A DNA stretch of 64,000 bases. Origin: Minisyncoccota bacterium. GTDB lineage: Bacteria > Patescibacteriota > Minisyncoccia > Moranbacterales > GCA-2747515. This document shows, piece after piece, positions 3,410-64,000 of the stretch (positions within the stretch are counted from its first letter, which is position 1; each line of letters starts with the position of its first letter). The DNA is taken from contig CALDDM010000008.1 of assembly GCA_937936355.1 (NCBI GenBank), positions 19,454-83,453 of the forward strand, read 5' to 3'. The translations under genes were made by a program, and so were the position numbers. The notes below the pieces were generated by a model. The model was not told where the DNA came from. It did no database searches and saw only the letters and a program-made list of their open reading frames with translations.

Positions 3410-3434
3410 ACTAATTCGTTATTTCCATTAACAC

Positions 3435-3656: not shown

Positions 3657-3687
3657 AGACAATGAATCAAGTTCTCAATACTGCACA

Positions 3688-4443: not shown

Positions 4444-4642
4444 ATTCTGTAATATTATGAATTTTCACTATGCCTATAAACTGCGATTCTGAATTCTATC
4501 TCATATATCTTACTATACCATCCAAAGAAAAGGAATATACGGATCTGCCTTGACAAGAGATACGATATGCAGATAGTGACAATATAGGGAAATTTGCATA
4601 TACCGGGTCGCACAATACAAATATCTGCGATATGATGACCAT

Positions 4643-8222: not shown

Positions 8223-8282
8223 AAAATATGAAAATTTCTTATAAATCCATTATGACACAATTTCATCTGTCTGTATTTTTAT

Positions 8283-8316
8283 CAAAAAAAACAAGGCAGC
8301 TTAGTTCAAGCTGCCT
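8283..8316 (-). terminator. rho-independent terminator
   Basis: On the minus strand, AGGCAGCUU-GAACU-AAGCUGCCU forms a 9-bp stem followed by UGUUUUUUUUG, about 30 nt after the stop at 8348. Confidence 0.7.
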
Positions 8317-8347
8317 CTAGACCCTTTACCTGCACCGCATCGACTTT

Positions 8348-8803: not shown

Positions 8804-8870
8804 TGCTCAAAACCTCTTTTTTAAGTGAGCTTTCAAACTACCAAAAGGCTGTCATAAAGTCAAGAATATC

Positions 8871-9374: not shown

Positions 9375-9385
9375 AAGAAATATAA

Positions 9386-51409: not shown

Positions 51410-54034
51410 ATGAAAGATCTCGACCAATCAATTACAAAACGCCTCACCAACCATGCGCGACAGAGCCTTTTACAGGCACAAAAAATCACGCACGCGGCAC
51501 ATCTGACAACAATGCAGACCGACCATCTTTTGTATGGTATTTTTTTGCAAAAAGGAAGCGTCGGATCAACGATTTTACATAACATGAATCTCAAAAAACA
51601 TCACTTTGAGAAAGAAATTTTTCGCAATGACAACAAGCAGAAAAATAAACCTAAGACAAAAAAGAATCAGCTTACGTCAAAAGCCCTCCCCTTAAATGTA
51701 CATGTGAAATCTGCTATTACTGGCGCATATGCTGCTTCAGCTGACTTCGGATACCCCTATGTAGGAACAGAACACCTTGTTTATGCCCTTCTCGGAAAAC
51801 CAAGTTCCAATATCAGAAAAATAATTGCTCATTGCGGTAGTCAAAAAATCAAATCAGTCAAAAAAAAGAAGGCACCAAAGGCATCTCCAAAAAATGAAAT
51901 CTCTACAACGAACAATGACAATCTCGGAGCATCTGAGCCCAAATCAAATAGTATTCATGCTGGTCCCAACGGATTCTCACCAGACATGCTCTCACAAATC
52001 GGCCATATACTCGGAAGCGAAGGCATTGGCGCACATAAATCACAAGAAGAAGAATTCAGTGGCGCCCTTGACCAATTTGCAATCGATACAGCAGATACTT
52101 CAGATCACCATGCATTTGTCGGCTATGCCAAAATTGTCGATCGCATCACCACAACACTCGGTCGTAAAAATAAGAATAACCCCCTACTTGTAGGTGAGCC
52201 TGGCGTTGGCAAGACCGCACTCGTCGAACATCTTGCACAACTAGCAAAAAGCGATGATGCCCCCGCACACCTCCGCGGGAAAAAAATTCTCACTCTAGAC
52301 TTGGCACTACTTGTAGCCGGTACAAGCTTTCGCGGAGAATTTGAACAGAGACTCAAAGATGTGATAGCAGAAGCGAGTGCATCGCGTAATACCATTCTTT
52401 TCATCGATGAAATTCATACGATCATTGGCACTGGCAATGCAGGCGGCAGCCTCGATGTTGCAAACATCCTAAAACCCTCCCTTGCACGTGGGGCACTCCA
52501 AATTATTGGCGCAACGACACACACAGAATACAAAAAGCACATCGCAGCTGATCCAGCTCTTTCACGACGATTTCAAAAAGTGCTCCTCACAGAACCTACA
52601 CCACAAGAAGCATACAAGATCCTTCATGGCGCACGAAAATCGTATGAGAAATATCACGGCGTACAATTCTCGCCAGAGAGTTTGCGTGCAGCGGTTGATC
52701 TTTCAATTCGCTACATCCCAGAGCAGTATTTACCTGACAAGGCCTTTGACCTCCTCGATGAAACTGCTGCACGACTTCATGGAGATCACCAAGACAAGGA
52801 CCTATATACATCACTCAGTGCAACCAATAATCTCCTCCATGACCTCGCCGAACAAAAAACAAACCTGCTACGCGCGCAACAATATGACGCAGCAAGCATT
52901 ATACAAAAGCAAGAAATACAAGCACAAAAAAAGAGTGATAAGATACAAAAAAATATTGCCAAACATGAGTCTATTGCAAAGTATCGAGTCACCAAAGAGG
53001 ACATCGTCAATACGTTATCACATACAACTGGCATTCCAAATGATGTATTACTAAGTGATCCCAGCAAACGTATCACGCAAGCTGTATCAAAGCTAAAAAA
53101 GACTATTGTAGGGCAAGATGTAGCGCTAGAAATCATTGGAGATACACTGACACGAGCAGCGCTTGGGCTTAGCAACACACAGAGGCCACAGGGCTCCTTT
53201 CTTTTTCTCGGTCCGACAGGCGTCGGAAAAACTCTGACTGCCAAAACACTCGCGCATGAAATTTTTGGCAGTGACGATGCGCTTATACGCATTGACATGA
53301 GTGAGCTGATGGAACGTCACTCTACGGCACGATTACTTGGTGCGCCTGCTGGCTATGTCGGATATGGCGAAGGTGGGACATTGACAGAAAAAATCAAAAA
53401 GAAACCTTACAGCGTAGTCCTCTTTGACGAGATTGAAAAAGCCCATCCCGATACATTCAATATTCTTTTACAAATCCTCGAAGACGGCACCATAACAGAT
53501 GGTGAAGGTACCACAGCAAATTTCCGCAATGCAATCATTATCCTCACTTCAAACATTGGCGCGACAAACGCGACTGGAGATCATTTAGGATTCAATGCAA
53601 ACGATGCGAACACAAAAAAGAAAGATGTTATCTATGAAAAAGCAGCCGCAGATTTCCTTGCGCCAGAACTCATATCTCGCCTTGATCATGTGGTGACATT
53701 TGCACCATTAAACGTAAAAGATCTTCAAAAAATTACACGAGCTGAAGTCAGGCGAATCGCCAAAAACCTAAAGGCCCGCAACATTACACTCACCTGCAAC
53801 AATACAGCCATCGCGCAAATTACAAATATGGCCATCGAAAACGATGCTCCGGGCGAAGCGCACGCAAGGCGGATTCGCAAATACATCCAAGATACCGTGG
53901 AGAAAGACCTTGCAAATCACCTTTTACAAAACAAAGTATCAGAGATTAAATCAATCACACTCTCTTTCAAAAAAACATCAAAGCAAACCAAAGAGTCAAC
54001 ATCAGGAATACACATCTCATCAAAAAAGTCTTAG
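51410..54034 (+). CDS. clpC: ClpC-type AAA+ unfoldase (Clp_N repeats, two NBDs, ClpP-docking LGF loop)
   Basis: 874 aa counted from the ATG at 51410 (MKDLDQSITKRL...). Walker A motifs are GEPGVGKTA and GPTGVGKT, and the docking loop is GDHLGFNAN. An extended -10 (TGGTATAAT) lies about 60 nt upstream. The ORF-track start at 51224 adds 62 non-homologous codons. Confidence 0.9.
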   Translation: MKDLDQSITKRLTNHARQSLLQAQKITHAAHLTTMQTDHLLYGIFLQKGSVGSTILHNMNLKKHHFEKEIFRNDNKQKNKPKTKKNQLTSKALPLNVHVKSAITGAYAASADFGYPYVGTEHLVYALLGKPSSNIRKIIAHCGSQKIKSVKKKKAPKASPKNEISTTNNDNLGASEPKSNSIHAGPNGFSPDMLSQIGHILGSEGIGAHKSQEEEFSGALDQFAIDTADTSDHHAFVGYAKIVDRITTTLGRKNKNNPLLVGEPGVGKTALVEHLAQLAKSDDAPAHLRGKKILTLDLALLVAGTSFRGEFEQRLKDVIAEASASRNTILFIDEIHTIIGTGNAGGSLDVANILKPSLARGALQIIGATTHTEYKKHIAADPALSRRFQKVLLTEPTPQEAYKILHGARKSYEKYHGVQFSPESLRAAVDLSIRYIPEQYLPDKAFDLLDETAARLHGDHQDKDLYTSLSATNNLLHDLAEQKTNLLRAQQYDAASIIQKQEIQAQKKSDKIQKNIAKHESIAKYRVTKEDIVNTLSHTTGIPNDVLLSDPSKRITQAVSKLKKTIVGQDVALEIIGDTLTRAALGLSNTQRPQGSFLFLGPTGVGKTLTAKTLAHEIFGSDDALIRIDMSELMERHSTARLLGAPAGYVGYGEGGTLTEKIKKKPYSVVLFDEIEKAHPDTFNILLQILEDGTITDGEGTTANFRNAIIILTSNIGATNATGDHLGFNANDANTKKKDVIYEKAAADFLAPELISRLDHVVTFAPLNVKDLQKITRAEVRRIAKNLKARNITLTCNNTAIAQITNMAIENDAPGEAHARRIRKYIQDTVEKDLANHLLQNKVSEIKSITLSFKKTSKQTKESTSGIHISSKKS

Positions 54035-54110
54035 ACCGAGGATGTGCGCAATGTCGCGAAACAAAATAAATACTCCACGTGAAATCTTTGCATGATCATA
54101 AAGTGTCTGT

Positions 54111-54809
54111 ATGTTTACGCGAATATGGGAATATCTACTAAGCTCAATCTTTCCAAAAAGATGCCTTGGATGCAAGGTATTTGATACATGGATTTGTCAT
54201 AGGTGCCATGGCATTTTGGCATTAGCGACGCAGCAACAATGCCCAATATGCACAAACACACTCACTCCATTTGGACAAACATGTCCACAGTGCGTACAAA
54301 AAACTGATGTGGCGCTTGATGGAGTATATGTGGCTTCAACCTATCAAGATCCCCTCCTCAAAAAACTCGTGCATTATTTTAAGTATAAATTTATTCGTGA
54401 GCTAGCGCAGCCTCTCGCACTTCTGCTCGCACAAAGCTTGCGCCATAGCCATCTCCCTGCACCAGACATACTTGTTGCAGTACCCTTACATCACCGACGC
54501 ATGCGATGGCGAGGCTTCAACCAGTCACAAGAACTTCTCAACGCACTTGACCTACAGATTCCTCAAGACTCCAAACACTTGATTCGCAATAAGTTCACAT
54601 CACCACAAGTAAAAAGAGGCACGCGCACTAAACGTCAAAAAAACCTTGTCGGCGCATTCACGGTAACCGATCGCACGATCTTCGATGGAAAAAATGTCCT
54701 TCTCATTGATGACGTGACAACTACCGCAACAACACTCAACGAATGTGCGCGGACATTAAAAAAAGCTGGAGCAAAAAACGTCTCCGGCTTAGTTCTCGCG
54801 AGAGATTAA
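54111..54809 (+). CDS. comF: ComF family (ComFC-like) phosphoribosyltransferase-domain protein
   Basis: 232-aa ORF with an N-terminal double zinc ribbon (CLGC...CHRC...CPIC...CPQC) and a C-terminal PRT motif VLLIDDVTTTATT. Confidence 0.85.
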   Translation: MFTRIWEYLLSSIFPKRCLGCKVFDTWICHRCHGILALATQQQCPICTNTLTPFGQTCPQCVQKTDVALDGVYVASTYQDPLLKKLVHYFKYKFIRELAQPLALLLAQSLRHSHLPAPDILVAVPLHHRRMRWRGFNQSQELLNALDLQIPQDSKHLIRNKFTSPQVKRGTRTKRQKNLVGAFTVTDRTIFDGKNVLLIDDVTTTATTLNECARTLKKAGAKNVSGLVLARD

Positions 54810-54839
54810 CAGGAAAAAACAATTGCAATACAGACGTGA

Positions 54840-55481
54840 TCAGTGTGCTCGATTTCTATAACGCTCAATAAAATGCTCAACAGTTTTGCCAATAAAGTTT
54901 GTGCGTCCAAACTTCCAATGCAAATATCCCAAAAAACTAACAATTGCAGCGCCTAGGGCATCGACAATCAAATCGCCCATTGTATCCTGAAGACTTTTTT
55001 GCATATAGGTATCAAAGATTCTATCAATACTAAACTCAAAAATCTCCCATGCAGCACCTATGGCAAGGGCAAATGTAAAGCCAAAGACCGCCACAACACT
55101 ATCAATCGCGTCAATTGTTTTAGCACTCTGCATCATACGCATAGAACCAAGACCGATGAGACCAAAAATCATCGCACTTACCATGTGCAGTGCAACATCC
55201 CACCAAGCAAACAACTCATAAAAGTCATGGATTTCACCGAGAAAAAGAGATGCATATGCAAAAAGTACAATCAAAAGAGATATAATGCGCGGCAAACGGA
55301 TCGCATACCATTTATTGAGCAATGTTGGCACAGCCGTAAAAAAGAGTGTCAACATAATCACAAAGAGAATCGCCCATTGCCCATGAGAAAACGCAAAGCC
55401 AGCGCCCAGCACAAGTGTGGACCACACGAAAACGGTTACCCCCCTTGCTGAAAACAAAAATTGCAGTACGTGATGCAGCAT
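54840..55481 (-). CDS. polytopic membrane protein, family not recognised
   Basis: 213-aa ORF with about six hydrophobic helices. Confidence 0.65.
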   Translation of the reverse strand: MLHHVLQFLFSARGVTVFVWSTLVLGAGFAFSHGQWAILFVIMLTLFFTAVPTLLNKWYAIRLPRIISLLIVLFAYASLFLGEIHDFYELFAWWDVALHMVSAMIFGLIGLGSMRMMQSAKTIDAIDSVVAVFGFTFALAIGAAWEIFEFSIDRIFDTYMQKSLQDTMGDLIVDALGAAIVSFLGYLHWKFGRTNFIGKTVEHFIERYRNRAH

Positions 55482-55534
55482 GCTACTAACTCACTATGTT
55501 ATTGACGGGAACCTCTCAAGCGATCATTCATTAT

Positions 55535-56122
55535 TCATTCAGACATAATCTCATCAAGAATCTCCTGCCTACCCCGACTCTTTGATGCGCTAGCTGGCAC
55601 AATTATAACATCTTCTGGTAATTCAGATTGTATATTCACAAGCGCGTGATGCAGAGATTTTTGATTGAGCTTATCGCATTTGTTGGCAACAACAATAAAT
55701 GGATGATTATACTGCTCAAGCACGCCAATCATCTCACGATCAAATTCTTGCAAACCAATTTTTGCATCAACAATCAAAACGGTTTTAGTGATTACTACCT
55801 CACCAGAGACAAAAAACCACAAAATTAATTTCCGCAATTTCTCTCGATATTTCATGCCAAGCTTTGCATATCCATAGCCAGGAAGATCAACAAAATAAAT
55901 CTCTTCATTCACCAAAAAGTAATTTATCATCTGCGTTTTCCCTGGTGTTGAACTTGAACGCACGAGACTCTTTTGTCCAGTAAGCATATTGATCAAGCTT
56001 GACTTTCCTACATTTGAGCGACCAACAAAAGCTATCTGTGGCTTCTCGTCACCAATAACATTATGAGAACCTACGACACTCTGAACAAAATGCGCATTTT
56101 TTACGATATGATCCTTCTTCAT
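55535..56122 (-). CDS. engB: ribosome-biogenesis GTPase YsxC/EngB
   Basis: 195-aa ORF with G1 GRSNVGKSSLIN, G2 PGKTQ, G3 DLPGYG and G4 NKCDK. Confidence 0.9.
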   Translation of the reverse strand: MKKDHIVKNAHFVQSVVGSHNVIGDEKPQIAFVGRSNVGKSSLINMLTGQKSLVRSSSTPGKTQMINYFLVNEEIYFVDLPGYGYAKLGMKYREKLRKLILWFFVSGEVVITKTVLIVDAKIGLQEFDREMIGVLEQYNHPFIVVANKCDKLNQKSLHHALVNIQSELPEDVIIVPASASKSRGRQEILDEIMSE

Positions 56123-56177
56123 TCTGTACAGTCAATAAAATTACATGATACCCCCCCCGAATAAAATGGATGAATAT

Positions 56178-56948
56178 CTACAAATAAAAGATAAAAAGCA
56201 CAATACCTAGTATAATACGATACCAGCCAAAAACCCTAAAGCTATACCGACCTATGAATTGCACAAAGACATGCAACGCTCCAAGCGCAATGATACAAGC
56301 TACCACAAAACCAACGATAAGATTAACAGTATTTTGCCCACTAAATAGGTCAGGTGTCTGCAGAAGATCATAAACTGTCACCACGGTAAGCACTGGAACT
56401 GCAAGTAAAAAAGAAAACTCCGCAGCAACCTTTCGTGAAAAACCACTCCATAGACCACCAATAATTGTCGCACCCGACCGCGATGTTCCAGGTATAAGCG
56501 AGACAATTTGCAAAACACCGACAATCAAAGCTTGCTTAACTGAAAGATCTTTAACATCATCCACCTTTACCTTATCAGGCTTTTTGGTGTACCAGTATTC
56601 CGTAAGCAAGAAAACAACACCCCCAACAATAAAAGCTCCAGCGACAACCTCCACAGCAAAAAGTTCTTTCACAATATCAGCCAAGAGATAACCTGCTATG
56701 AGAATCGGCAATGCGCCAACCCCCACAAGCATCCAAGACTGCTTTGAAAAGAGGAGTGTTGAACGATAATAAAGCACAACAGCTACAACAGCAGCGAATT
56801 GTATGACAACCTGAAAGCTCTTGAGAACCTCATCCTGCTCAAGACCCAAAAAGGAACTAGCAACAATCATGTGCCCCGTCGAAGAGACTGGCAGAAATTC
56901 CGTCAGACCTTCTATTACAGCGATAATAATTGCGTCAAATACTGTCAT
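56178..56948 (-). CDS. uppP: undecaprenyl-diphosphate phosphatase
   Basis: 256-aa polytopic ORF with the BacA motifs EGLTEFLPVSSTGH and PGTSRSGATI. Confidence 0.92.
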   Translation of the reverse strand: MTVFDAIIIAVIEGLTEFLPVSSTGHMIVASSFLGLEQDEVLKSFQVVIQFAAVVAVVLYYRSTLLFSKQSWMLVGVGALPILIAGYLLADIVKELFAVEVVAGAFIVGGVVFLLTEYWYTKKPDKVKVDDVKDLSVKQALIVGVLQIVSLIPGTSRSGATIIGGLWSGFSRKVAAEFSFLLAVPVLTVVTVYDLLQTPDLFSGQNTVNLIVGFVVACIIALGALHVFVQFIGRYSFRVFGWYRIILGIVLFIFYL

Positions 56949-57075
56949 AGAGACGTGCTCATGTTATGGATCAGATAGTTATACAGCCCTCTTTTGTCGT
57001 TCAAATCCTACAAGAACTCTCAGCGCATTGTAGTGGATAAATGCATACCTGTCTATCGATGCACAAAACCAAAAA

Positions 57076-57690
57076 TTACGAACGCTGTGACTTCTTCTGG
57101 ATAAAGACATAACCTGCAACAATCAAGCAAAGCAAAACAATGGTTACAATAACAATCTGGCCAAGGTACTGCTCAATTAAGGCTTGATTGGAGCCTAAAA
57201 AGTATCCCAAAAGCGTGAGAATAATCATCCATATAGCAGCGCCAAGTGTCGTATAGATGGTAAAGACGAGAGGGTTCATCTTTGCAAGACCAGCAGGAAA
57301 CGAGATGTACTGCCGAACAATTGGAATAAGTCGACCGATAAATGTCGAAATCGCCCCATGCCTCTCAAAAAATCCTTCGACACGATGCATTTTTTCCTGC
57401 GTCACAAAACGCCCGACCACAGGGGCATTAAAAAGAAATGCACGCCCAAATGTGCGCGCGAGAGCATAATTAATCCACGCACCCACAAGAGAGCCAAGTA
57501 CACCCACACCAATAGCAATCCACAAACTCATTTCACCACGAGCTGCAGCCACACCAGCTGGTATCATTGCCACTTCACTAGGAAAAGGAAAAAATGTACT
57601 CTCAAGGGTCATCATAATAAAGATCCCAGTATAACCCCACGCACTCACAATACCTACTATACCGTCTATAATGTGATGCAAAAACTCCAT
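57076..57690 (-). CDS. DedA family membrane protein
   Basis: 204-aa ORF with DedA signatures FPFPSEVAM and GRLIPIVRQYISFPAG. Confidence 0.85.
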   Translation of the reverse strand: MEFLHHIIDGIVGIVSAWGYTGIFIMMTLESTFFPFPSEVAMIPAGVAAARGEMSLWIAIGVGVLGSLVGAWINYALARTFGRAFLFNAPVVGRFVTQEKMHRVEGFFERHGAISTFIGRLIPIVRQYISFPAGLAKMNPLVFTIYTTLGAAIWMIILTLLGYFLGSNQALIEQYLGQIVIVTIVLLCLIVAGYVFIQKKSQRS

Positions 57691-57727
57691 ATCGTTCTTT
57701 TAAATATAATATCGATTTATTTTACAA

Positions 57728-58369
57728 CTACTCAACAAAAGGATCCTCAAACAGCTCATCAAACAACGTCTCAGAGGCTATAAAGGCGGAGCCACATTCC
57801 ACATTAACCACCTCTTGGACAATTTTTTGAAATTGCACATCTTTTCTCGATTCCTCCAAATCTATAAGCGCATCATACTCTGTCGCGTAACCTTGATCGA
57901 CAAAATATGCGTCACGCTTCTTCTGCAACTCCAGAAGTACTTCACGATCAGCAACAGTTCCATCATCAAAGTATGACTGCCAGAAATCTTTATCTACAGC
58001 AGCACACACAACACCACCAAAGACCTCTGCACGCTTTACCACAAGCGGATCAGCAACTCCAATCTCCTGCACTGGAGTCGGAGACACTACAACTTCATCC
58101 ACCTTCTGCTCGGGACTCTCTCGCACTGGATCCTCCCGATCTACAAAGAAATCACCGTCAAAAAGACGTTGAAGAAAGTCTTTTTTTTGAGCTACCATCT
58201 CCGATTCAGTCTTATAATCTCCCTGTGTTAATTCCCCTATTTCTGCTTGAGTTTGTGTCATCTGGTCATTCTGAAATCCTTGATTTACTGATTGCACATC
58301 TTTATCACTACAACCAGAAAAAACAACACTCACACATGCAATAGTCATACACATTATCACTCCCCTCAT
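57728..58369 (-). CDS. hypothetical lipoprotein
   Basis: 213 aa counted from the ATG at 58369. The lipobox is MRGVIMCMTIACVSVVFSGC|SDKD, and the mature part is acidic. Confidence 0.6.
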   Translation of the reverse strand: MRGVIMCMTIACVSVVFSGCSDKDVQSVNQGFQNDQMTQTQAEIGELTQGDYKTESEMVAQKKDFLQRLFDGDFFVDREDPVRESPEQKVDEVVVSPTPVQEIGVADPLVVKRAEVFGGVVCAAVDKDFWQSYFDDGTVADREVLLELQKKRDAYFVDQGYATEYDALIDLEESRKDVQFQKIVQEVVNVECGSAFIASETLFDELFEDPFVE

Positions 58370-58392
58370 AAACAGCTCTAAATCAGTTAAGA

Positions 58393-58788
58393 TTATCGAT
58401 ATCCTCGTCCATATGCTTGCCCGCCACCCCATCGCAACGGGGTATGCAAGTATGGTGTCGACAGTGTATCCCGCACCCCAAAATACACATCCAAAACGTC
58501 GATATTCGTACTCTCATGGGTTGCCTGACGACACATGTCAAAGTCGGTGTCTACACGATCACGAACAAAAACATCACCACCCAACCAGTACGCTCGAGCG
58601 CGCTCTGCACAACAACGATTCGTAGCGTCTGAGACATACGGAGTGATCATGCCGCAGTTGTCAGAGCCCCTATAGACGGCATCACCATCCGGATCCACCT
58701 CATAAAAACTCCAACTCACCAACCACCATGCATACAGACCAAAAGCGCATGAGATAAAAAATAATATTCTTGCAGCTTCTCTACTCAT
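58393..58788 (-). CDS. hypothetical N-terminally anchored, Cys-rich exported protein
   Basis: 131-aa ORF with one N-terminal TM segment. I recognised no motif. Confidence 0.5.
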   Translation of the reverse strand: MSREAARILFFISCAFGLYAWWLVSWSFYEVDPDGDAVYRGSDNCGMITPYVSDATNRCCAERARAYWLGGDVFVRDRVDTDFDMCRQATHESTNIDVLDVYFGVRDTLSTPYLHTPLRWGGGQAYGRGYR

Positions 58789-58841
58789 AATACATATCTT
58801 TACATATAAGTATACTACAAAAGCATCTAAATCTCAGATGA

Positions 58842-59450
58842 TCACGTCAATGCAAATCGCATGCGATAAATAGAATCCCCTGCAGCCATTTTTGCCTGCT
58901 CCCACTTTGTCTGTATGCCATGGGGAGATGCATCAAAATACACAATATTCTCCACACCACTCTGCATCAAAAGTACTACCGTATCATCAAACAATTGTTT
59001 TTGATCTGTTTGATAAGTCCACGAAATACCACGTGGCATCCATGTGCGCACATCTGTAATGAGTCGCTCACAAATCACGCGACGCTTATGGTGACGGTCT
59101 TTAAACCACGGGTCAGGAAAATTCACATAAATCATCTCCACAGATGCACCATCAACAGTGATCGCATCATTCAGTAATGCTCGCAAATTCCGCACAGCAT
59201 CACCAGCAAAAACAGCAACATTCTCGTTGTCTGCAAAGCGCTCCATGAGTCTCTGTGCAAGTGGCTTGCGGATTTCCAAAACAAGAAAATTATAACGATC
59301 CCCATGCAGATCCAACAGACCCTGTGTAAATTCACCACGATCCGCACCGATATCAACAATAATTGGTCGATCATTGCCAAAACCAGCAAACGAGTATTCA
59401 CTGCGATCACTTAGTGGATTGACATGGTGACGTACGCGTTTTTTACTCAT
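58842..59450 (-). CDS. trmB: tRNA (guanine46-N7)-methyltransferase
   Basis: 202-aa ORF with IVDIGADRGEF (SAM motif I) and the YVNFPDPWFKDRHHKRR motif typical of TrmB. Confidence 0.85.
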   Translation of the reverse strand: MSKKRVRHHVNPLSDRSEYSFAGFGNDRPIIVDIGADRGEFTQGLLDLHGDRYNFLVLEIRKPLAQRLMERFADNENVAVFAGDAVRNLRALLNDAITVDGASVEMIYVNFPDPWFKDRHHKRRVICERLITDVRTWMPRGISWTYQTDQKQLFDDTVVLLMQSGVENIVYFDASPHGIQTKWEQAKMAAGDSIYRMRFALT

Positions 59451-59509
59451 AAAAACTTATGGTAATTACTAAATCGACAAAAAACATCAGGCTATATATC
59501 TCAAAAAAA

Positions 59510-59866
59510 CTAGAAAAGCTCAATAGCACGCTCAGGAAAATCACAGTACAGTGCCCTATTTTCACCCTTAACAACAATTGGCGATTTCATGACATATGGA
59601 TGATCTGCGATAAAATCTATAATCTCAGCATCATCTGACTCCTCATTGAGATGACTATCCACCCAGACAACATCATCCCGATCAACAAGATCTATAGCCC
59701 ACATCCCAAGCATATCCAATAGACTCTGAATATCATCTGTTGTACACACACAATCCTCAAGAATCACATTATGGCATGAACTAGGTGAAACGCCATTATC
59801 ACGCAATAACGCAACAACATTATCCGCATGTGACGATTTCAAGTGTCGATATATTTTGTATGTCAT
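59510..59866 (-). CDS. ArsC/Spx/YffB-fold protein lacking the N-terminal redox Cys
   Basis: 119 aa counted from the ATG at 59866. The C-terminal HPYVMKSPIVVKGENRAL resembles the P-x-L-I/K-R-P-I motif of the ArsC family. The N-terminal CxxC/Cys position reads RHLKSSH. Confidence 0.45.
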   Translation of the reverse strand: MTYKIYRHLKSSHADNVVALLRDNGVSPSSCHNVILEDCVCTTDDIQSLLDMLGMWAIDLVDRDDVVWVDSHLNEESDDAEIIDFIADHPYVMKSPIVVKGENRALYCDFPERAIELF

Positions 59867-59873
59867 ATTTCTT

Positions 59874-60407
59874 TTACTCTGGCACGGTATATATAGTAAG
59901 AGGTGTTTGACCCTCAGGCGCATCACGCACAGTGATGCCATCCCACCTCTTTAGCGTGAAATTATACAACACAATGCGTGAATGTGCACGTAATTGCGCC
60001 ACCACCCCCAAAAAGCGAGGGCTATTGATACTACGACGCACACCAAAAACATAAAGAACATCAGCATCGCCATAGCTCTGCGTATAAATATTACCTCTGA
60101 TAAGACGCACATTCGTCACCCCTGAAAAAAAGACGCGCGCGCAAGCGATCCCATGCAAAACAAACGACATCTCCACACCCACAAACCGCGCATCAGGATA
60201 GAGTCGCGCAAGCAAGAGTATCACGCGAGCATCACCAGAGCCAAGATCATAAAACGTCTCCCCAGACTTAAGACCTGACAATGTCCCGATACGCGCAATG
60301 TCAGACTTTCTCGTAGGCAACCATGGCGCAAGAGAAAGAATTGTATAAATCATCCACGCAGCGATCACACAACTAGCCACACTAATACATATTGCTGAGA
60401 TCATCAC
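59874..60407 (-). CDS. class I SAM-dependent methyltransferase with N-terminal TM anchor
   Basis: 177-aa ORF with motif I FYDLGSGDARV. Confidence 0.7.
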   Translation of the reverse strand: MMISAICISVASCVIAAWMIYTILSLAPWLPTRKSDIARIGTLSGLKSGETFYDLGSGDARVILLLARLYPDARFVGVEMSFVLHGIACARVFFSGVTNVRLIRGNIYTQSYGDADVLYVFGVRRSINSPRFLGVVAQLRAHSRIVLYNFTLKRWDGITVRDAPEGQTPLTIYTVPE

Positions 60408-60412
60408 TTTCT

Positions 60413-61162
60413 TTAAAGCGTAAAATTTTGAAAATCAAACCAATCCTCCAAAGCAGCAGCATCTTGCACATAGCCACGCACATCTTGCGTGCGGGATATT
60501 CCCAAATGCAAATGCTTACGCTCACCACCAGACTCAGCGCTTAGATGATCGCCAAGCTCCGTGATTTTGGAACCAGCGGATACTGACTGTCCTTGTGTAA
60601 CAACTGTGTCGGTGCGAGAAATATGCCCATAAAGCACATACACATCTCCACCCGCATTCACAGAAGGGCAAAGCTGCGTGATCACACCACCATAACCAGA
60701 AACATCATCTATACGGACTATAGCGCCATCACAAATCGCAAAGACATCCATATCTTGAGACAGCTCCTCCTGTGTCACTTCAAAATCAACACCCGTATGA
60801 TACCCGCGAAATCTCTCTGGTTGGACAGGTGATGTTGCAGGGTCGATCTTTATCCCAAAAGGTTTGCGCGAGATACGCTTCTGTACATCTCCCACGAGTG
60901 GTGCCGTGAGCATTACGACACTCTCACCCTGATCTGCACGATCACTGGCGCTCTCCTCACTGTCAAAATCGATATTACTCACACCCATTTGCGATGGAGC
61001 CTTTTGTAATTTGTGAGCTAACTCTTCCACTTGCGAATAATCTCCTGGAACAACTTCTACCATCACATCATGCGTAGCAACCTGTGCGCAACCTGAAAGA
61101 ACCAACAGCAAAAGCAATGACCAACATACTCTTGAACTCCCTCGTCTTTTTTCATTTCCCAT
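60413..61162 (-). CDS. M23 family metallopeptidase (lipoprotein)
   Basis: 249-aa ORF with the lipobox LVLSGC|AQ and the LytM motifs HTGVDF and HLHLGI. Confidence 0.85.
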   Translation of the reverse strand: MGNEKRRGSSRVCWSLLLLLVLSGCAQVATHDVMVEVVPGDYSQVEELAHKLQKAPSQMGVSNIDFDSEESASDRADQGESVVMLTAPLVGDVQKRISRKPFGIKIDPATSPVQPERFRGYHTGVDFEVTQEELSQDMDVFAICDGAIVRIDDVSGYGGVITQLCPSVNAGGDVYVLYGHISRTDTVVTQGQSVSAGSKITELGDHLSAESGGERKHLHLGISRTQDVRGYVQDAAALEDWFDFQNFTL

Positions 61163-61178
61163 TCTCGATTCTAATAGA

Positions 61179-61979
61179 CTAATCTTTCAATTCCAAGGAA
61201 AGCGGGCAATGATCGCTTCCATATTGGTCATGCAAATACTGCACACCTACAACATTCTTGTCGTACTTTTTATCGAGAAAGAAATAATCGATCCGCCACC
61301 CAACATTGCGATCACGAGATTTCGTTACCATATCCCACCATGAGTAGACATCTGTGACATCTTCATTTCTTACGCGCCACACATCAATCCAATAATCATC
61401 AATCAGTCGGTCAACCCATGCGCGCTCCTTTGGATGAAAACCGACTTTGCCATCATTACTCTTTGCTCGCGCTATATCGATCTCTGTATGCGCAACATTG
61501 ACGTCACCACCCATAATCACGATGTGCCCATCCTCTCGAAGTTTGCTCATATGTGCATGAACCTTGTCATAAAAAACAAGCTTCTCTTTCCATGCCTGAT
61601 CACTCTTCCCGCCATTTGGAAAATAGACAGAGAAGATACTATATACTTTCTTTTTTCTCGTAAACGTCAGTTGGGATATCCGCCCCTCATCCATATTTGG
61701 CGCATCCTCTATATGCGTGTGAAATGACACATCACTACAATCCTTCATAAAATCCTTACGGACCCAAATTGCAGTGCCTGCATAACCCTTCTTGTGAGCA
61801 CTATGATAATACTGATCATAGTCTGCATGCTCTGTCAGGTACGCACCAAACTGATCTCGCTGACCCTTAATTTCCTGAAAAAGGAAAAATTCTGCAACCT
61901 CTCTCTCAACGAATTCCTGCAAATCGCCTTTACGCTCTACTGCGCGGATGCCATTAACATTCCATGTAATAATCTTCAT
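61179..61979 (-). CDS. xth: exodeoxyribonuclease III
   Basis: 266-aa ORF with MKIITWNVNGIRA, LFQEIK and C-terminal GSDHCPLSLEL. Confidence 0.93.
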   Translation of the reverse strand: MKIITWNVNGIRAVERKGDLQEFVEREVAEFFLFQEIKGQRDQFGAYLTEHADYDQYYHSAHKKGYAGTAIWVRKDFMKDCSDVSFHTHIEDAPNMDEGRISQLTFTRKKKVYSIFSVYFPNGGKSDQAWKEKLVFYDKVHAHMSKLREDGHIVIMGGDVNVAHTEIDIARAKSNDGKVGFHPKERAWVDRLIDDYWIDVWRVRNEDVTDVYSWWDMVTKSRDRNVGWRIDYFFLDKKYDKNVVGVQYLHDQYGSDHCPLSLELKD

Positions 61980-62021
61980 ATAATTGTCATTTGTTTTAGT
62001 ATAGCAAATCTCATCTCATTG

Positions 62022-62050
62022 ATTGACACAAAGATGTATTTATACTATAA
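62022..62050 (+). promoter_or_regulatory. perfect-consensus promoter TTGACA-N17-TATAAT
   Basis: TTGACA is at 62022-62027 and TATAAT at 62045-62050. GGAG lies 7 nt upstream of the ATG at 62079. Confidence 0.6.
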
Positions 62051-62078
62051 TGCTGACATCGTAATTTGGAGACTGCGC

Positions 62079-62423
62079 ATGCAGATCACAAGTAAAACAA
62101 CTACCTTCAAAACCGCAGTCGCGATCATAAGGGCCATCTACCCTAGTTATCGCCACGCACAAGACACACACCTTTACGCCCACCTACAAAAAATCCTCTT
62201 TAATCAACTCACCGAAAAAGAGAGATTAAAAAATGGTGTACGTCTCTACCAAGTTTCAGTAGAGGTTGCCGAGTTTCGCCAGACTGAAAAAATCGACAAA
62301 GTATACGAAATTAAAACACTCGGCGGCACAGTGATTGGCTACGTTGGCACGGTCAAGCAAGGTGTGAGAGTGATAAGAATTGTAGCCAAAAAGGCAAAGA
62401 CAAAAGGTCAGGGATCCCCCTGA
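62079..62423 (+). CDS. orphan 114-aa basic protein
   Basis: The start is MQITSKTTTF... at the ATG at 62079. The ORF-track 5' extension to 61794 is antisense to xth. A consensus promoter, an SD and a strong terminator flank the gene. Confidence 0.65.
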   Translation: MQITSKTTTFKTAVAIIRAIYPSYRHAQDTHLYAHLQKILFNQLTEKERLKNGVRLYQVSVEVAEFRQTEKIDKVYEIKTLGGTVIGYVGTVKQGVRVIRIVAKKAKTKGQGSP

Positions 62424-62436
62424 CCTTAATTTTTTA
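62406..62436 (+). terminator. rho-independent terminator
   Basis: GGTCAGGG-ATCC-CCCTGACC forms an 8-bp stem followed by TTAATTTTTT. It overlaps the stop codon. Confidence 0.75.
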
Positions 62437-62524
62437 AAGAAAAACAAAAGAAAAACAACAGATCATTATATTTCTATGTGCAAAAATATTTGCTCAGATT
62501 ACTTCCCACACACTCCTCCACACC

Positions 62525-62553
62525 TTGATTTACCACTTCTTTCATAGTATACT
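62525..62553 (+). promoter_or_regulatory. tRNA promoter TTGATT-N17-TATACT
   Basis: The -35 hexamer is at 62525-62530 and the -10 hexamer at 62548-62553, 22 nt upstream of the mature tRNA 5' end. Confidence 0.55.
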
Positions 62554-62575
62554 GTGAAAACTGTAATTGTGCAGA

Positions 62576-62666
62576 TGGAGAGGTGCTAGAGTGGTTGAAT
62601 AGGACACCCTGCTAAGGTGTTAGCCCTTCACGGGGCTCGAGGGTTCGAATCCCTTCCTCTCCTCCA
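62576..62666 (+). tRNA. tRNA-Ser (anticodon GCU), class II with long variable arm, CCA encoded
   Basis: The acceptor stem is GGAGAGG/CCUCUCC. The anticodon stem ACACC/GGUGU encloses the loop CUGCUAA. The variable arm is GCCC..GGGC, and the T-arm is GAGGG-UUCGAAU-CCCUU. The 3' end is U-CCA. Confidence 0.9.
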
Positions 62667-62668
62667 AT

Positions 62669-62704
62669 ACTATAAGACACGGATTATTGTCCGTGTTTTA
62701 TAGT
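62669..62704 (+). terminator. 15-bp hairpin immediately after the tRNA
   Basis: ACTATAAGACACGGA-TTATTG-TCCGTGTTTTATAGT, with one G-U pair. The U-run lies inside the 3' arm. Confidence 0.55.
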
Positions 62705-62750
62705 ATCTGGATAGTGGCAAAAGAATTCGAGGTTTATGCCCAAGAGCGAA

Positions 62751-62779
62751 GCGACAGGGTAAATCCCTTCCCCACCATC
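62751..62779 (+). repeat. degenerate duplicate of the tRNA-Ser 3' end (T-arm plus acceptor)
   Basis: GCGACAGGGTAAATCCCTTCCCCACCATC resembles the tRNA segment CGAGGGTTCGAATCCCTTCCTCTCCTCCA. They share an exact 10-mer, AATCCCTTCC. The copy lies about 90 bp downstream of the tRNA. Confidence 0.45.
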
Positions 62780-62894
62780 TCATTCTATAAGGCAAAACAA
62801 ATCACTCTACCTCATAGCACCTAAAGAGTTTGACACGCCTTACAAAGCCTGAAATCTTTTATGGAGTAAATAATTCTTTCAATACACTAATAAA

Positions 62895-63353
62895 ATGTAC
62901 TATCTCCACTCATTCGTTACGATCATTGTAGTCATTATGATTACAAGTATATATAACAACAACGTACTTGTTACATTATTTGTATCAATCATGATTTTAG
63001 CATGGGTTTATACGAAGCAAATACTGATTTCAGATGGAATTGAGGAAGAAAAAGTTAACGAGAAAATTAAGTTAACACTAATCATGAATGGCTTCGTCAT
63101 AGCTATGCTTCCAAGTATCATGAGTTTCATAAATAAACCAATAGAAAATTTTGGCTCACAAGAAGCCATACTATTCGCCTCTCTACTAGCACCTGTTATT
63201 TCTATTCTGATCATATTCGCAGCATTTTCTCAAGAAAACGCTCAAATGAAGAAAAAGCTCTTTAATTATGGGACAGGGACTTTCTTTACTTTTACGGCGC
63301 TCGCAACTTTCTTATACATCTGGCTTCTGCTGTCAGGCGCATCGTTAGTCTAG
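62895..63353 (+). CDS. hypothetical polytopic membrane protein in an AT-rich segment
   Basis: 152-aa ORF with about five hydrophobic helices. Its codon composition is visibly more A/T-rich than the core genes. Confidence 0.6.
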   Translation: MYYLHSFVTIIVVIMITSIYNNNVLVTLFVSIMILAWVYTKQILISDGIEEEKVNEKIKLTLIMNGFVIAMLPSIMSFINKPIENFGSQEAILFASLLAPVISILIIFAAFSQENAQMKKKLFNYGTGTFFTFTALATFLYIWLLLSGASLV

Positions 63354-63536
63354 TTAACTTGGGATTATTAAATTTTTCATAGATCCTCACTGGCATTCGG
63401 CCTCCACCATGACCGACGACGTTGATTTGCAGTAAACCCTGTACACACAAAAATCAAAGATTTTCGTGTGCTTGGCACTGAGGGACAGGGGCGTATAATA
63501 ATAAAAAAGTGTTGATTTCTAAAAAATAGAAATACT

Positions 63537-64000
63537 ATGAAGCCAATTTATCTGGATTTACATATCCATACATCAAATGATCCAAATAACCTAAGCATTG
63601 ATTACGATTTAGATACTCTCATTGCAAAGGTGAAAGAACAAGCCCAAGGTGACGACTTTCTGATTTCACTTACCGACCATAACAACATAAATGAAAGAGT
63701 TTACTTGGAGGCAGTCTCAAAGCTTGATGACAAAATTATTTTGGGTGTTGAGCTACACATAAAAGCATATGAAGACAAAGATGCTAAGTCTTATCACTGC
63801 CATATATACTTTGATCTGAATAAGATCAATGCAAAAGTAATTCAAGATCTAAACAAAAAACTTAATATCTTATACCCCAATAAACAACCAAATAAAAAGG
63901 ATGAATCAATACCTATCATAGAGAGCATTTTAAATACTTTTGACGAATATAGCTTTGTATTACTGCCACATGGCGGACAATCTCATGCAACATTTGACAG
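63537..64000 (+). CDS. PHP (polymerase/histidinol phosphatase-type) phosphoesterase domain protein, N-terminal part (truncated by the window edge)
   Basis: This is a hand-translated open frame not present in the ORF track. It reads MKPIYLDLHIHTSND...SLTDHNNI...GVELHIKA...YHCHIYF...LLPHGGQSHATFD. The HxH, DH, E..H, H and H motifs occur in PHP order. Confidence 0.75.
   Translation, partial: MKPIYLDLHIHTSNDPNNLSIDYDLDTLIAKVKEQAQGDDFLISLTDHNNINERVYLEAVSKLDDKIILGVELHIKAYEDKDAKSYHCHIYFDLNKINAKVIQDLNKKLNILYPNKQPNKKDESIPIIESILNTFDEYSFVLLPHGGQSHATFD

What the first reader, a model, noticed from the sequence alone, without database searches (positions are those of the whole stretch)
62576..64000. tRNA-Ser(GCU) followed by a degenerate copy of its own 3' end and an AT-rich segment carrying a PHP-domain gene (integration scar or possible defence island)
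**What the sequence shows.** About 90 bp downstream of the tRNA there is a diverged duplicate of its T-arm and acceptor 3' half (62751-62779), sharing the exact 10-mer AATCCCTTCC. Beyond it the DNA becomes visibly more AT-rich. That stretch encodes a 152-aa membrane protein and then an ORF beginning with a complete set of PHP phosphoesterase motifs (DLHIHT, TDHN, ELH, HCH, PHGGQSH). The ORF runs off the window.

**Established knowledge.** Duplication of a tRNA 3' end is the signature left by tRNA-targeting integrative elements.

**Inference.** N-terminal PHP domains fused to large ATPase or nuclease bodies occur in several anti-phage or DNA-processing proteins. No integrase is visible within the window.
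Basis: partly seen in the sequence, partly recalled or inferred. Interest (0 to 1): 0.55.

Follow-up and report, generated by a model that had tools for sequence, protein, structure and literature searches.

The report
Defence islet beside a tRNA-Ser gene
Next to a serine tRNA gene this bacterium (probably a Patescibacteria/CPR member) carries a piece of foreign, AT-rich DNA marked by a worn-down copy of the tRNA's end; its main gene is an uncharacterised nuclease–ATPase fusion that in other microbes sits among anti-virus genes, so it is probably a new variant of a known type of anti-phage system.

Summary
tRNA-Ser(GCU) lies at 62577-62666. A decayed copy of its T-loop and acceptor 3' end lies at 62756-62776. 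Taken alone the copy is only modestly significant (p about 0.005). However, a related genome (L167) has a 19-nt perfect copy at the homologous place, and similarity between the two genomes stops directly after it.

The DNA beyond the copy has 35% GC against 42.5% for the rest of the window, lower than any same-size stretch there. The PHP ORF starts at 63537 behind a near-consensus promoter. Its full product (P0178) is 781 aa: a PHP phosphoesterase fused to an SMC/Rad50-like ABC ATPase with a short coiled coil.

It belongs to a uniform family of about 770-aa proteins scattered across many phyla. The family scores below the curated cut-offs of its nearest named relatives (TrlF, Spaf_1101, Ppl). 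In about 90% of loci the gene is followed by a translationally coupled, roughly 80-aa acidic partner. Other neighbours vary and are mostly restriction-modification, Abi, Bub and GmrSD genes and recombinases, most often large serine recombinases.

The module is absent from the same tRNA-Ser site in two relatives. Defence function, mechanism and the distal island end (beyond the window) remain inferred.

The parts
62525..62553 (+). Promoter-like site upstream of the tRNA (TTGATT-17-TATACT, 9 of 12 matches)
   Evidence: Weak consensus match only.
62577..62666 (+). tRNA-Ser(GCU) gene. It serves as the hot-spot anchor.
   Evidence: ARAGORN; Rfam RF00005, 54.6 bits. Essentially identical to the tRNA of L167 (one indel near the 3' end).
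62677..62700 (+). Hairpin (ACACGG-loop-CCGTGT) followed by a T-run. Probably the tRNA terminator. Conserved in L167, with changes confined to the loop.
   Evidence: Sequence; alignments.
62667..62755 (+). Spacer between the tRNA and its copy. About 80% identical to L167, although the DNA upstream of the tRNA cannot be aligned between the two genomes.
   Evidence: 49/60 and 39/60 identical columns, against 27-31/60 upstream and beyond 62784. Found in no other fetched locus.
62756..62776 (+). Decayed direct copy of the tRNA T-loop and acceptor 3' end, an att-type repeat. Contains the exact 10-mer AATCCCTTCC at 62762-62771.
   Evidence: statistics; 19-nt perfect counterpart in L167; homology ends at about 62783.
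62784..64000 (.). Low-GC segment (35% GC), interpreted as the proximal part of a horizontally acquired island that continues beyond the window.
   Evidence: No nucleotide-level relative of 62784-63536 in any fetched locus.
62895..63353 (+). Orphan 152-aa ORF with about 4 hydrophobic (transmembrane-like) segments
   Evidence: No Pfam, NCBIfam or PADLOC hit. No tblastn hit in 170 loci. Called as a gene on the Logan contig.
63472..63499 (+). Near-consensus sigma-70-type promoter (TTGGCA-16-TATAAT, 11 of 12 matches), 38 nt upstream of the PHP ORF
63537..64000 (+). First 154 codons of the 781-aa PHP phosphoesterase / SMC-Rad50-like ABC ATPase gene. The full product is P0178. The stop is predicted at extended coordinate 65882.
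   Evidence: translation. (identical Logan contig extends the ORF to 307 aa, ending at the Walker A motif GESSSGKT). (P0178 has an identical N-terminus and comes from an 89,931-bp contig). (fold searches).

Best explanation
The tRNA-Ser(GCU) gene is a recombination hot spot. The sequence at 62756-62776 is the decayed remnant of an att-type duplication of the tRNA 3' end. Everything to its right is a horizontally acquired, low-GC islet.

Its cargo in the window is an orphan four-helix membrane ORF and, behind its own strong promoter, a 781-aa protein. That protein fuses a PHP-family metal-dependent phosphoesterase (the likely nuclease) to an SMC/Rad50/RecN-type ABC ATPase head interrupted by a short coiled coil.

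The following steps are inferred by analogy with about 90% of relatives, not seen in the window:
- The gene is followed, translationally coupled, by an acidic partner of about 75-100 aa.
- In this clade the partner ends in D-[IL]-P-F, like the C-terminal tip of SSB.
- The islet ends in a large serine recombinase gene that reads back towards the tRNA.

Proposed mechanism (inferred): the pair is a self-contained anti-phage or anti-mobile-DNA module of the Ppl/TrlF kind. The ATPase head and coiled coil sense an abnormal DNA state, such as free ends or replication intermediates, and/or the nucleotide level. They then license the PHP domain to degrade DNA. The small acidic partner regulates or targets this activity.
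For: Shown:
- The tRNA is confirmed.
- The repeat has a 19-nt perfect homologue in L167, and the end of alignability falls at the repeat.
- A 23-nt exact (35-nt gapped) copy of a tRNA-Glu 3' end sits in the same position in the closest relative's locus, L083.
- GC is 0.351 against 0.425, with 0 of 609 same-size windows as low.
- The module is absent downstream of tRNA-Ser(GCU) in L163 and L167.
- L167 has a large serine recombinase abutting the repeat. L002 and L083 have homologous recombinases (31-32% identity) at the tRNA-distal end of islands that hold the module.
- A serine recombinase is the commonest variable neighbour: 13 of 77 dereplicated loci.

Protein:
- The full length is 781 aa.
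- The AF2 model has mean pLDDT 83.8. Foldseek matches SMC, Rad50 and RecN heads with coiled coil, and the PolIII-alpha PHP domain, all at probability 1.0.
- The N-terminal model matches the RNase AM and PolIII-alpha PHP domains.
- A profile search of PDB sequences hits Rad50 and AriA.
- Metal-ligand, Walker A/B, signature and H-loop residues are invariant.
- Nearest curated families are TrlF (194 bits), Spaf_1101 (110 bits) and the anti-phage Ppl (76-100 bits).

Context:
- The small partner is present in 114 of 128 complete loci, at a spacing of -35 to +12 nt.
- Other neighbours vary. They include type I, II and IIG restriction-modification genes, DpnII, GmrSD-HNH, Abi_alpha, a Bub operon and TrlG-like genes.
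- Distribution is patchy: 159 relatives in 185,579 species genomes, spread over many phyla and archaea at 50-63% identity.
- No relatives were found in IMG/VR.

From the literature: E. coli Ppl is described as a ssDNA 3'-5' exonuclease that is inhibited by bound NTPs and activated by nucleotide depletion and 3'-OH ends (PMC12904381).
Against: - No experiment exists for any member of this subfamily.
- It scores below the cut-off of every curated family, so transferring function from Ppl or TrlF is remote inference. Similarity to TrlF is 32% over 129 C-terminal residues.
- The window and its 459-bp extension stop inside the gene. The partner gene, further cargo, the recombinase and any distal repeat are not seen for this genome.
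- Both copies of the tRNA end lie on the same side of the island, so the repeat does not delimit it. It may stem from an older, unrelated element.
- Large serine recombinases do not normally create long direct repeats.
- No third copy was found at the distal end in L083 or L002.
- tRNA adjacency holds for a minority of loci overall.
- The defence context is descriptive, with no background control.
Confidence: 0.65

Rival explanations
1. The repeat and the island are unrelated events. The tRNA-end copy and its 90-nt spacer would be the fossil of an older, classical tyrosine-integrase element. The present low-GC DNA would have arrived later by another route, such as a serine-recombinase element with its own target next to the fossil, or homologous exchange of flanks at a hot spot.
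For: - Both copies of the tRNA end lie to the left of the island.
- No distal copy was found in L083 or L002.
- L002 carries the module directly after tRNA-Ser(GCU) with no repeat at all.
- Serine recombinases need only a 2-bp crossover (established knowledge).
- Stacking of successive integrations and leftover partial tRNAs at one tRNA is documented for tycheposons (bioRxiv 10.1101/2020.12.28.424599).
Against: - In three independent loci (window, L167, L083) the variable DNA starts exactly at the copy.
- The spacer plus copy is about 80% identical between genomes whose DNA upstream of the tRNA is unalignable. This suggests either that it is functionally constrained, for example as a recombination site, or that it was shared recently.
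Confidence: 0.2
2. The PHP-ATPase pair is not an immune system. It would instead be a maintenance or addiction module of mobile DNA, or an accessory DNA-end-processing machine: a single-chain analogue of SbcCD/Mre11-Rad50 that serves the element or the host.
For: - The architecture, a phosphoesterase plus a Rad50/SMC-like head with coiled coil, mirrors Mre11-Rad50.
- The related TRL locus of Photorhabdus was found through a temperature-restriction growth phenotype, not through phage assays (bioRxiv 10.1101/2020.06.02.129163).
- The module is frequently linked to recombinases and, in one lineage, to a Mob_Pre gene.
Against: - The distribution is patchy and non-syntenic.
- The module is embedded among restriction-modification, GmrSD, Abi and Bub genes.
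- The nearest experimentally tested relative is the anti-phage Ppl.
- Nothing comparable was found on sequenced plasmids or phages.
Confidence: 0.13
3. Nothing special is here. The PHP ORF would be an ordinary housekeeping enzyme (histidinol phosphatase, or a PolX/PolIII-associated domain), the 10-mer a chance match, and the AT-richness normal local variation.
For: - The Pfam PHP match is weak (19.2 bits, below the 26.4-bit gathering score).
- The 10-mer alone has p of about 0.005-0.03.
- Another stretch of about 36% GC exists at 1-2000 of the window.
Against: - The full protein is a 781-aa fusion with an SMC-like ATPase.
- It is absent at this site in relatives.
- Only 159 relatives occur in 185,579 species genomes, across unrelated phyla.
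- L167 has a 19-nt perfect repeat at the homologous position.
- The GC of the segment is lower than all 609 control windows.
Confidence: 0.02

Closest known systems
Ppl (Gao et al. 2020 single-gene anti-phage system; NCBIfam NF042955, PADLOC Ppl)
   Same: It has an N-terminal PHP phosphoesterase followed by an ABC/SMC-like NTPase. The C-terminal roughly 130 residues (signature, Walker B, H-loop) match the Ppl models at E 1e-18 to 5e-29. It is found in defence contexts. Ppl is reported as an NTP-inhibited ssDNA 3'-5' exonuclease that senses 3'-OH ends (PMC12904381), which is a plausible template for the mechanism here.
   Different: - The score is 76-100 bits against a cut-off of 1000, and only the C-terminal tail aligns.
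- Length is about 775 aa against about 880 aa.
- Ppl works alone, whereas this family nearly always has a coupled small acidic partner.
TrlF (temperature-restriction locus trlR-trlF-trlG of Photorhabdus laumondii; NCBIfam NF045780; also found inside type I restriction-modification operons of IncC plasmids)
   Same: It is the best-scoring curated family (186-194 bits), with the same order of PHP domain then AAA-like ATPase. Like TrlF on pNDM102337, the family often neighbours type I restriction-modification genes. Six loci have a TrlG-like AlbA_2+HATPase_c_4 gene 2-4 genes downstream.
   Different: - It scores below the 350-bit cut-off.
- BLASTP against plasmid TrlF gives only 32% identity over 129 residues.
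- TrlF is 880 aa and is paired with TrlG. The small TRL gene is described as a regulator at the start of the operon, whereas here the partner is an acidic downstream protein with no HTH hit.
Mre11-Rad50 / SbcCD and other SMC-like defence ATPases (Wadjet JetC, Lamassu LmuB, PARIS AriA, Gabija GajA)
   Same: It has an ABC head split by a coiled coil and combined with a nuclease. Foldseek and profile searches hit Rad50, RecN, SMC, JetC and AriA. PADLOC gives weak Walker A-region hits to LmuB and GajA.
   Different: - The nuclease is a PHP domain fused in cis, not an Mre11 calcineurin-type, Toprim or Cap4 nuclease.
- The coiled coil is short, about 175 residues (371-545).
- No kleisin-like or Mre11-like partner is present.
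tRNA-targeting genomic islands with tandem accretion (for example the tycheposons of Prochlorococcus) and serine-recombinase islands that preserve the target gene end (SCCmec at rlmH; the latter from general knowledge)
   Same: A full tRNA is followed by a partial tRNA copy, then variable cargo. Islands at one tRNA differ between relatives. Degenerate partial tRNAs act as fossils. A minority of tycheposons use large serine recombinases.
   Different: - The hosts are Patescibacteria-like genomes.
- The islets are tiny (about 3-8 kb in L083 and L002) and consist of defence genes.
- No replication or packaging genes were seen.
- Neither the recombinase nor the distal boundary has been seen for this genome.

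Membership tests
PHP (polymerase and histidinol phosphatase) superfamily | Sequence match to Pfam PF02811 at or above the gathering score | tested here: not met
   19.2 bits for the 154-aa fragment and 17.3 bits for the 307-aa version, against a cut-off of 26.4.
PHP (polymerase and histidinol phosphatase) superfamily | PHP barrel fold with conserved His/Asp/Glu metal ligands | tested here: met
   The AF2 models match the RNase AM PHP domain (7ug9), 3o0f, 2yb1 and the PolIII-alpha PHP domain (4iqj) at probability 0.99-1.0. H9, H11, D47, H48, E72, H74, H87, H89, H145 and D212 are invariant in 68 sequences. The last canonical D-x-H motif reads D-N-Y.
SMC/Rad50-type ABC ATPases | Walker A, Q-loop, signature, Walker B and H-loop motifs, split by a coiled-coil insertion | tested here: met
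   G293-x4-G298-K299, Q344, S655/G657, D680-Q-P-E683-D and H713 are invariant. Long helices span 371-545. Foldseek matches Smc2, Smc, RecN and Rad50 heads at probability 1.0. A profile search hits Rad50 at E 3.5e-4.
TrlF family AAA-like ATPase (NF045780) | Score at or above the curated equivalog cut-off (350 bits) | tested here: not met
   Full-length relatives score 194.1 bits (L002) and 186.3 bits (L003). The window's own first 307 aa score 68.2 bits.
TrlF family AAA-like ATPase (NF045780) | Operon partner TrlG (AlbA_2 + HATPase_c_4) | tested here: inconclusive
   A TrlG-like gene is present in only 6 of 146 loci, or 4 of 77 after dereplication. The region downstream of the window's gene is not available.
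Ppl anti-phage protein (NF042955 / PADLOC Ppl) | Full-length match at or above the curated cut-off (1000 bits) | tested here: not met
   76.4 and 100.8 bits, covering the C-terminal roughly 130 residues only. The PADLOC Ppl model gives 64-72 bits over the same region.
Ppl anti-phage protein (NF042955 / PADLOC Ppl) | Stand-alone single-gene system that protects against phage | not testable with these tools
   The family has a conserved coupled partner in 114 of 128 loci, which argues against a single-gene system. Protection needs an experiment.
Spaf_1101 family AAA-like ATPase (NF045781) | Score at or above the curated cut-off (475 bits) | tested here: not met
   109.7 and 113.4 bits.
tRNA-targeting integrative island | A tRNA gene at one boundary | tested here: met
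   tRNA-Ser(GCU) lies 90 nt before the repeat and 118 nt before the compositional break.
tRNA-targeting integrative island | A direct repeat of the tRNA 3' end at the far boundary of the element | tested here: inconclusive
   A repeat exists, but it lies between the tRNA and the island. The distal boundary is outside the window. No distal copy was found in L083 or L002.
tRNA-targeting integrative island | A site-specific recombinase gene within the element | tested here: inconclusive
   None lies within the window or its 459-bp extension. Homologous large serine recombinases are present at the same tRNA in L167, and at the island ends in L002 and L083.
tRNA-targeting integrative island | Deviating base composition and presence/absence polymorphism among relatives | tested here: met
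   GC is 0.351 against 0.425, with 0 of 609 control windows as low. L163 and L167 lack the module at tRNA-Ser(GCU).
Defence island cargo | Recurrent linkage to known defence genes in unrelated genomes | tested here: met
   - L083: EcoRI-like methyltransferase and GmrSD-HNH.
- L002: type II restriction enzyme and D12 methyltransferases.
- L176: Abi_alpha and a Bub operon.
- Neighbour clusters: HsdM, HsdS, HsdR, DpnII and C5 methyltransferase.
- Type I, II and IIG restriction-modification models top the PADLOC scan of 147 neighbours.
. No background control was run.

The most novel reading that the evidence does not exclude
The PHP/SMC-like ATPase and its small acidic partner would form a distinct, so far unvalidated two-gene immune system. 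The partner's SSB-like C-terminal tip (D-[IL]-P-F in the window's clade) would gate the nuclease. It could do so by occupying an SSB-tail pocket until SSB-coated phage ssDNA displaces it, or by recruiting the enzyme to SSB-interacting replication or repair factors. In streamlined Patescibacteria the module would travel on minimal islets driven by large serine recombinases that target tRNA 3' ends.
Probability: 0.25. Interest if true: 0.7.

Novelty: new variant of a known kind. Interest (0 to 1): 0.5.

Why it matters
PHP-ATPase fusions (Ppl, TrlF) are a poorly understood branch of bacterial immunity. This subfamily is uniform and widespread. The full-length search found 995 proteins at E ≤ 1e-20, spanning Bacteroidota, Firmicutes, Planctomycetota, Patescibacteria and archaea. 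It is missed by the curated Pfam, NCBIfam and PADLOC cut-offs tested here, and it has an obligate small partner that the characterised relatives lack.

If validated, it would add a defence family. Cultured hosts that carry it include Tenacibaculum discolor, Veillonella parvula, Peptoniphilus ovalis and Chryseobacterium takakiae. It would also offer a single-chain analogue of nuclease-Rad50 machines for mechanistic work.

The locus further gives a concrete example of how reduced-genome Patescibacteria may acquire defence genes: through tiny islets at tRNA genes associated with large serine recombinases.

Tried and rejected
**Recovering the source contig beyond 64000**
- Look-ups by exact protein returned only a 20.9-kb Logan contig that ends 459 bp past the window.
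- The genome and metagenome scans found no identical locus. The best was 76% identity.

**Searches that found nothing**
- The first homologue search, with the 154-aa fragment, returned only short fragments of 268 aa or less. It gave no architecture.
- No distal tRNA-end copy was found in L083 or L002.
- The short contigs of closer Xth relatives (L166, L174, L175) break before the tRNA.
- L169 has no tRNA at the site.
- L170-L172 come from a non-syntenic organism.
- IMG/VR has no relatives.
- Plasmids and phages have no match covering 80% or more.
- PDB sequence search with one protein found nothing.
- Rfam found only the tRNA.
- The membrane ORF has no family hit and no homologue in any locus.
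- A literature search for SSB-tail mimicry in defence systems found nothing relevant.

**Ideas rejected**
- Housekeeping histidinol phosphatase or a PolX-associated domain.
- A prophage remnant: no phage genes and no viral-contig relatives.
- The spacer as a structured RNA or tRNA pseudogene: no Rfam hit. The only convincing hairpin I saw in it by eye is the terminator; it was not folded.
Full report
**1. The observation**

ARAGORN finds a single tRNA in the 64-kb window, tRNA-Ser(GCU) at 62577-62666 on the + strand. Rfam agrees and finds nothing else in 62300-64000.

The tRNA is followed by a hairpin with a T-run at 62677-62700. At 62756-62776 lies AGGGTAAATCCCTTCCCCACC, which aligns to the T-arm and acceptor 3' strand of the tRNA (AGGGTTCGAATCCCTTCCTCTCC) with one 2-nt gap. 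The exact 10-mer AATCCCTTCC occurs only twice in the window: in the tRNA and here.

Taken alone this is modest evidence. A score at least as high is reached by 4 of 824 300-nt chunks elsewhere in the window, and by 31 of 5000 Markov simulations. With a stricter scoring scheme only the 10-mer survives, at p about 0.03 against the whole 1.8 kb downstream.

The compositional shift is real. GC is 0.351 from 62780 to the end of the available sequence, against 0.425 for the rest of the window. None of 609 same-size windows is as low.

The 152-aa ORF (62895-63353) has about four hydrophobic segments. It has no family hit and no homologue in any locus I fetched.

The PHP ORF begins with ATG at 63537. 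A near-consensus promoter, TTGGCA-16-TATAAT, lies 38 nt upstream at 63472-63499.

**2. Extending the gene**

A Logan contig identical to window 52895-64000 runs 459 bp further. It extends the ORF to 307 codons, ending at a Walker A motif, GESSSGKT.

A later search with the closest full-length relative returned P0178. It is 781 aa, comes from an 89,931-bp NCBI/ENA contig, and its first 307 residues are identical to the window's product. The identical Xth protein of the window (P0056) is on a contig of the same length. I therefore take P0178 as the window's own complete protein. The contig itself could not be retrieved.

**3. What the protein is**

- *Sequence level.* The PHP match is below Pfam's threshold.
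- *Conserved residues.* The metal-ligand residues are invariant across 68 full-length relatives. So are Walker A (G293..G298-K299), the Q-loop, a signature-like S655/G657, Walker B (D680-Q-P-E683-D) and the H-loop (H713).
- *N-terminal model.* An AlphaFold model of an N-terminal fragment matches the PHP domains of RNase AM, 3o0f, 2yb1 and PolIII-alpha at probability 0.99-1.0.
- *Full-length model.* The model of P0178 (mean pLDDT 83.8) has a PHP barrel, an ABC head and long helices at 371-545. It matches SMC, RecN, Rad50 and JetC heads with coiled coil, and again the PolIII-alpha PHP domain.
- *Profile search.* A search of PDB sequences hits Rad50 and the PARIS ATPase AriA.

The protein is therefore a PHP phosphoesterase fused in one chain to an SMC/Rad50-like ATPase.

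**4. Family and partner**

Identity to the window's first 307 residues is 50-76%. The hosts include Patescibacteria, Bacteroidota, Firmicutes, Planctomycetota, Proteobacteria, Campylobacterota, Actinobacteria and archaea.

Lengths are strikingly uniform, mostly 766-795 aa.

In 114 of 128 loci with a complete gene and enough downstream sequence, a 70-110-aa ORF follows at -35 to +12 nt, most often at +1 or with a 4-nt overlap. All such ORFs form a single BLAST cluster. The partner is acidic (median net charge -8) and has no Pfam, NCBIfam or PADLOC hit.

In the window's clade the partner ends in D-[IL]-P-F. This clade includes the closest full-length relatives: L083 at 72% identity, L176 at 69%, and also L002. 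That ending is the motif of the SSB C-terminal tip (the SSB motif is from general knowledge).

No other neighbour is conserved.

**5. Relation to named families**

Full-length relatives score as follows against the curated models:
- TrlF: 186-194 bits, cut-off 350.
- Spaf_1101: 110-113 bits, cut-off 475.
- Ppl: 76-101 bits, cut-off 1000.

PADLOC gives only a C-terminal Ppl match and weak mad3, GajA and LmuB hits.

True TrlF, as on IncC plasmids inside a type I restriction-modification operon next to a TrlG-like gene, shares only 32% identity over 129 C-terminal residues.

TrlF was named from the Photorhabdus temperature-restriction locus trlR-trlF-trlG (bioRxiv 10.1101/2020.06.02.129163).

Ppl is a validated single-gene anti-phage protein. 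It is now described as an NTP-inhibited ssDNA 3'-5' exonuclease activated by nucleotide depletion and 3'-OH ends (PMC12904381; see also PMC11482910).

This subfamily is thus a relative of these families, not a member of any of them.

**6. Genomic context of relatives**

- *L083, 72% full-length identity.* The order is: tRNA-Glu, a 23-nt exact (35-nt gapped) copy of its 3' end 150 nt downstream, an HTH-like ORF (identified by eye from the sequence; no family search was run on it), an EcoRI-like methyltransferase, GmrSD_N-HNH, the module, a truncated large serine recombinase on the opposite strand, then housekeeping genes.
- *L002 (Komeilibacteria).* The order is: tRNA-Ser(UGA), tRNA-Arg, tRNA-Ser(GCU), the module starting 142 nt later, a type II restriction enzyme, two D12 methyltransferases, then a complete large serine recombinase on the opposite strand.
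- *L176, 69% full-length identity.* Abi_alpha and a Bub-type operon (Multi_ubiq, ThiF, BubE) lie upstream of the module.
- *tRNA adjacency elsewhere.* A tRNA directly precedes the module in L084, L089, L074 and L059.

Across all loci the recurrent variable neighbours are HsdM, HsdS and HsdR, N6_N4, D12 and C5 methyltransferases, DpnII, RmuC, a TrlG-like gene, tyrosine integrases, Mob_Pre and large serine recombinases. The serine recombinases are the commonest after dereplication, at 13 of 77 loci. A PADLOC scan of 147 immediate neighbours is topped by type I, II and IIG restriction-modification models and mads models. No control set was run, so this result is descriptive.

No relative exists in 2.9 million IMG/VR contigs. 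There is no near-full-length match in the plasmid or phage collections.

**7. The tRNA-Ser site in related genomes**

Xth, the window's gene just left of the tRNA, has homologues at 83, 79, 75, 72, 68 and 66% identity.

*L167 (68%).* It shares ten syntenic genes with the window, and tRNA-Ser(GCU) sits next to xth.
- The tRNAs are essentially identical (one indel near the 3' end).
- DNA upstream of the tRNA cannot be aligned.
- Downstream DNA is about 80% identical through the hairpin and spacer, up to the repeat. In L167 the repeat is a 19-nt perfect copy of the tRNA end (GAATCCCTTCCTCTCCTCA).
- Similarity drops to background right after it, at about 62783.
- Beyond the copy L167 has not the PHP module but a large serine recombinase gene converging on the tRNA. 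It is 31-32% identical to the recombinases of L002 and L083.

*L163 (79%).* It has tRNA-Ser(GCU) 6 kb from xth. It has unrelated genes on both sides, no repeat and no module.

The window's degenerate copy is therefore a real, decaying att-type repeat at a junction where gene content differs between relatives.

**8. Interpretation**

*Shown.* There is a hot spot at tRNA-Ser(GCU), marked by a duplicated tRNA end. A compositionally foreign segment begins there. It encodes a PHP/SMC-like ATPase of a horizontally scattered family that is linked to defence genes.

*Inferred.* The island continues with the acidic partner, and probably with more cargo and a large serine recombinase. The module is probably an anti-phage or anti-mobile-DNA nuclease of the Ppl/TrlF kind.

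*How the repeat arose is not settled.* Because both copies lie proximal to the island, the simplest history is tandem accretion at the tRNA: an older element reduced to about 90 bp, with later arrivals using the second copy. This is documented for tycheposons. The 80% conservation of spacer plus copy, next to unalignable upstream DNA, hints that this piece is itself a functional recombination site or was shared recently.

**9. Verdict**

The concept, a defence islet at a tRNA hot spot carrying a Ppl-like PHP-ATPase, is known. The particular two-gene subfamily is a new, unvalidated variant, notable for its SSB-tail-like partner and its association with serine recombinases in Patescibacteria. 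Interest is moderate.

Noticed in passing
L083 12344-12637; L002 12347-12634; L176 12344-12613; also L003, L004, L086, L087, L089, L090, L108, L140: The small acidic partner of the PHP-ATPase ends in D-[IL]-P-F in the window's clade (for example ...EDIPF, ...DDIPF, ...KDDDLPF). This is the motif of the SSB C-terminal tip that recruits many DNA-metabolism enzymes. In the survey of 121 partners, 10 end in [IML]-P-F (2 more end in G-M-F). L176, fetched afterwards, is a further case.
   Followed up: partly
L083 7068-7330: tRNA-Glu is followed by an inverted 14-16-nt copy of its acceptor 3' end at about 7183-7196, and then by a direct 23-nt exact (35-nt gapped) copy at 7290-7324. This is a more complex scar than in the window.
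   Followed up: partly
L167 65-1402 (+), overlapping tRNA-Ser at 1358-1445 (-): The large serine recombinase ORF has no stop before the repeat. It reads through the att-like copy and the spacer into the antisense of the tRNA, so its last roughly 50 residues are encoded by junction DNA.
   Followed up: no
L002 15186-16685 (-): An unusual fusion: a LexA DNA-binding domain, an S24 peptidase and a D12 (Dam-like) adenine methyltransferase in one 499-aa ORF. It sits next to a second D12 methyltransferase and a type II restriction enzyme.
   Followed up: no
L176 5816-7897: A Bub-type ubiquitin-like conjugation operon (Multi_ubiq, ThiF/DUF6791, BubE) and an Abi_alpha gene lie just upstream of the PHP-ATPase module, forming a compact defence island.
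   Followed up: no
L062 13014-14522 and five other loci (positions +2 to +4): An AlbA_2 + HATPase_c_4 gene lies downstream of the module. It has the same domain pair as TrlG of the Photorhabdus temperature-restriction locus, which suggests an evolutionary link between the two operon types.
   Followed up: partly
L173 (pNDM102337, IncC plasmid) 106-10696: TrlF and a TrlG-like 'RNA-binding domain' gene are inserted between hsdR and hsdS/hsdM of a type I restriction-modification operon. At least the listed top plasmid hits carry this TrlF/TrlG-like pair; the search matched 510 plasmid records in all, mostly conjugative plasmids of Enterobacterales.
   Followed up: no
window 1-2000: A second low-GC stretch (about 0.36) lies at the left edge of the window. 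It overlaps two large minus-strand ORFs (489-1988 and 1991-3409). It could be another acquired segment.
   Followed up: no
L001 end (window-equivalent 64459); L174 and L175 starts: Independent assemblies break inside the PHP gene or just upstream of xth. This is consistent with strain-level variability at this hot spot.
   Followed up: no
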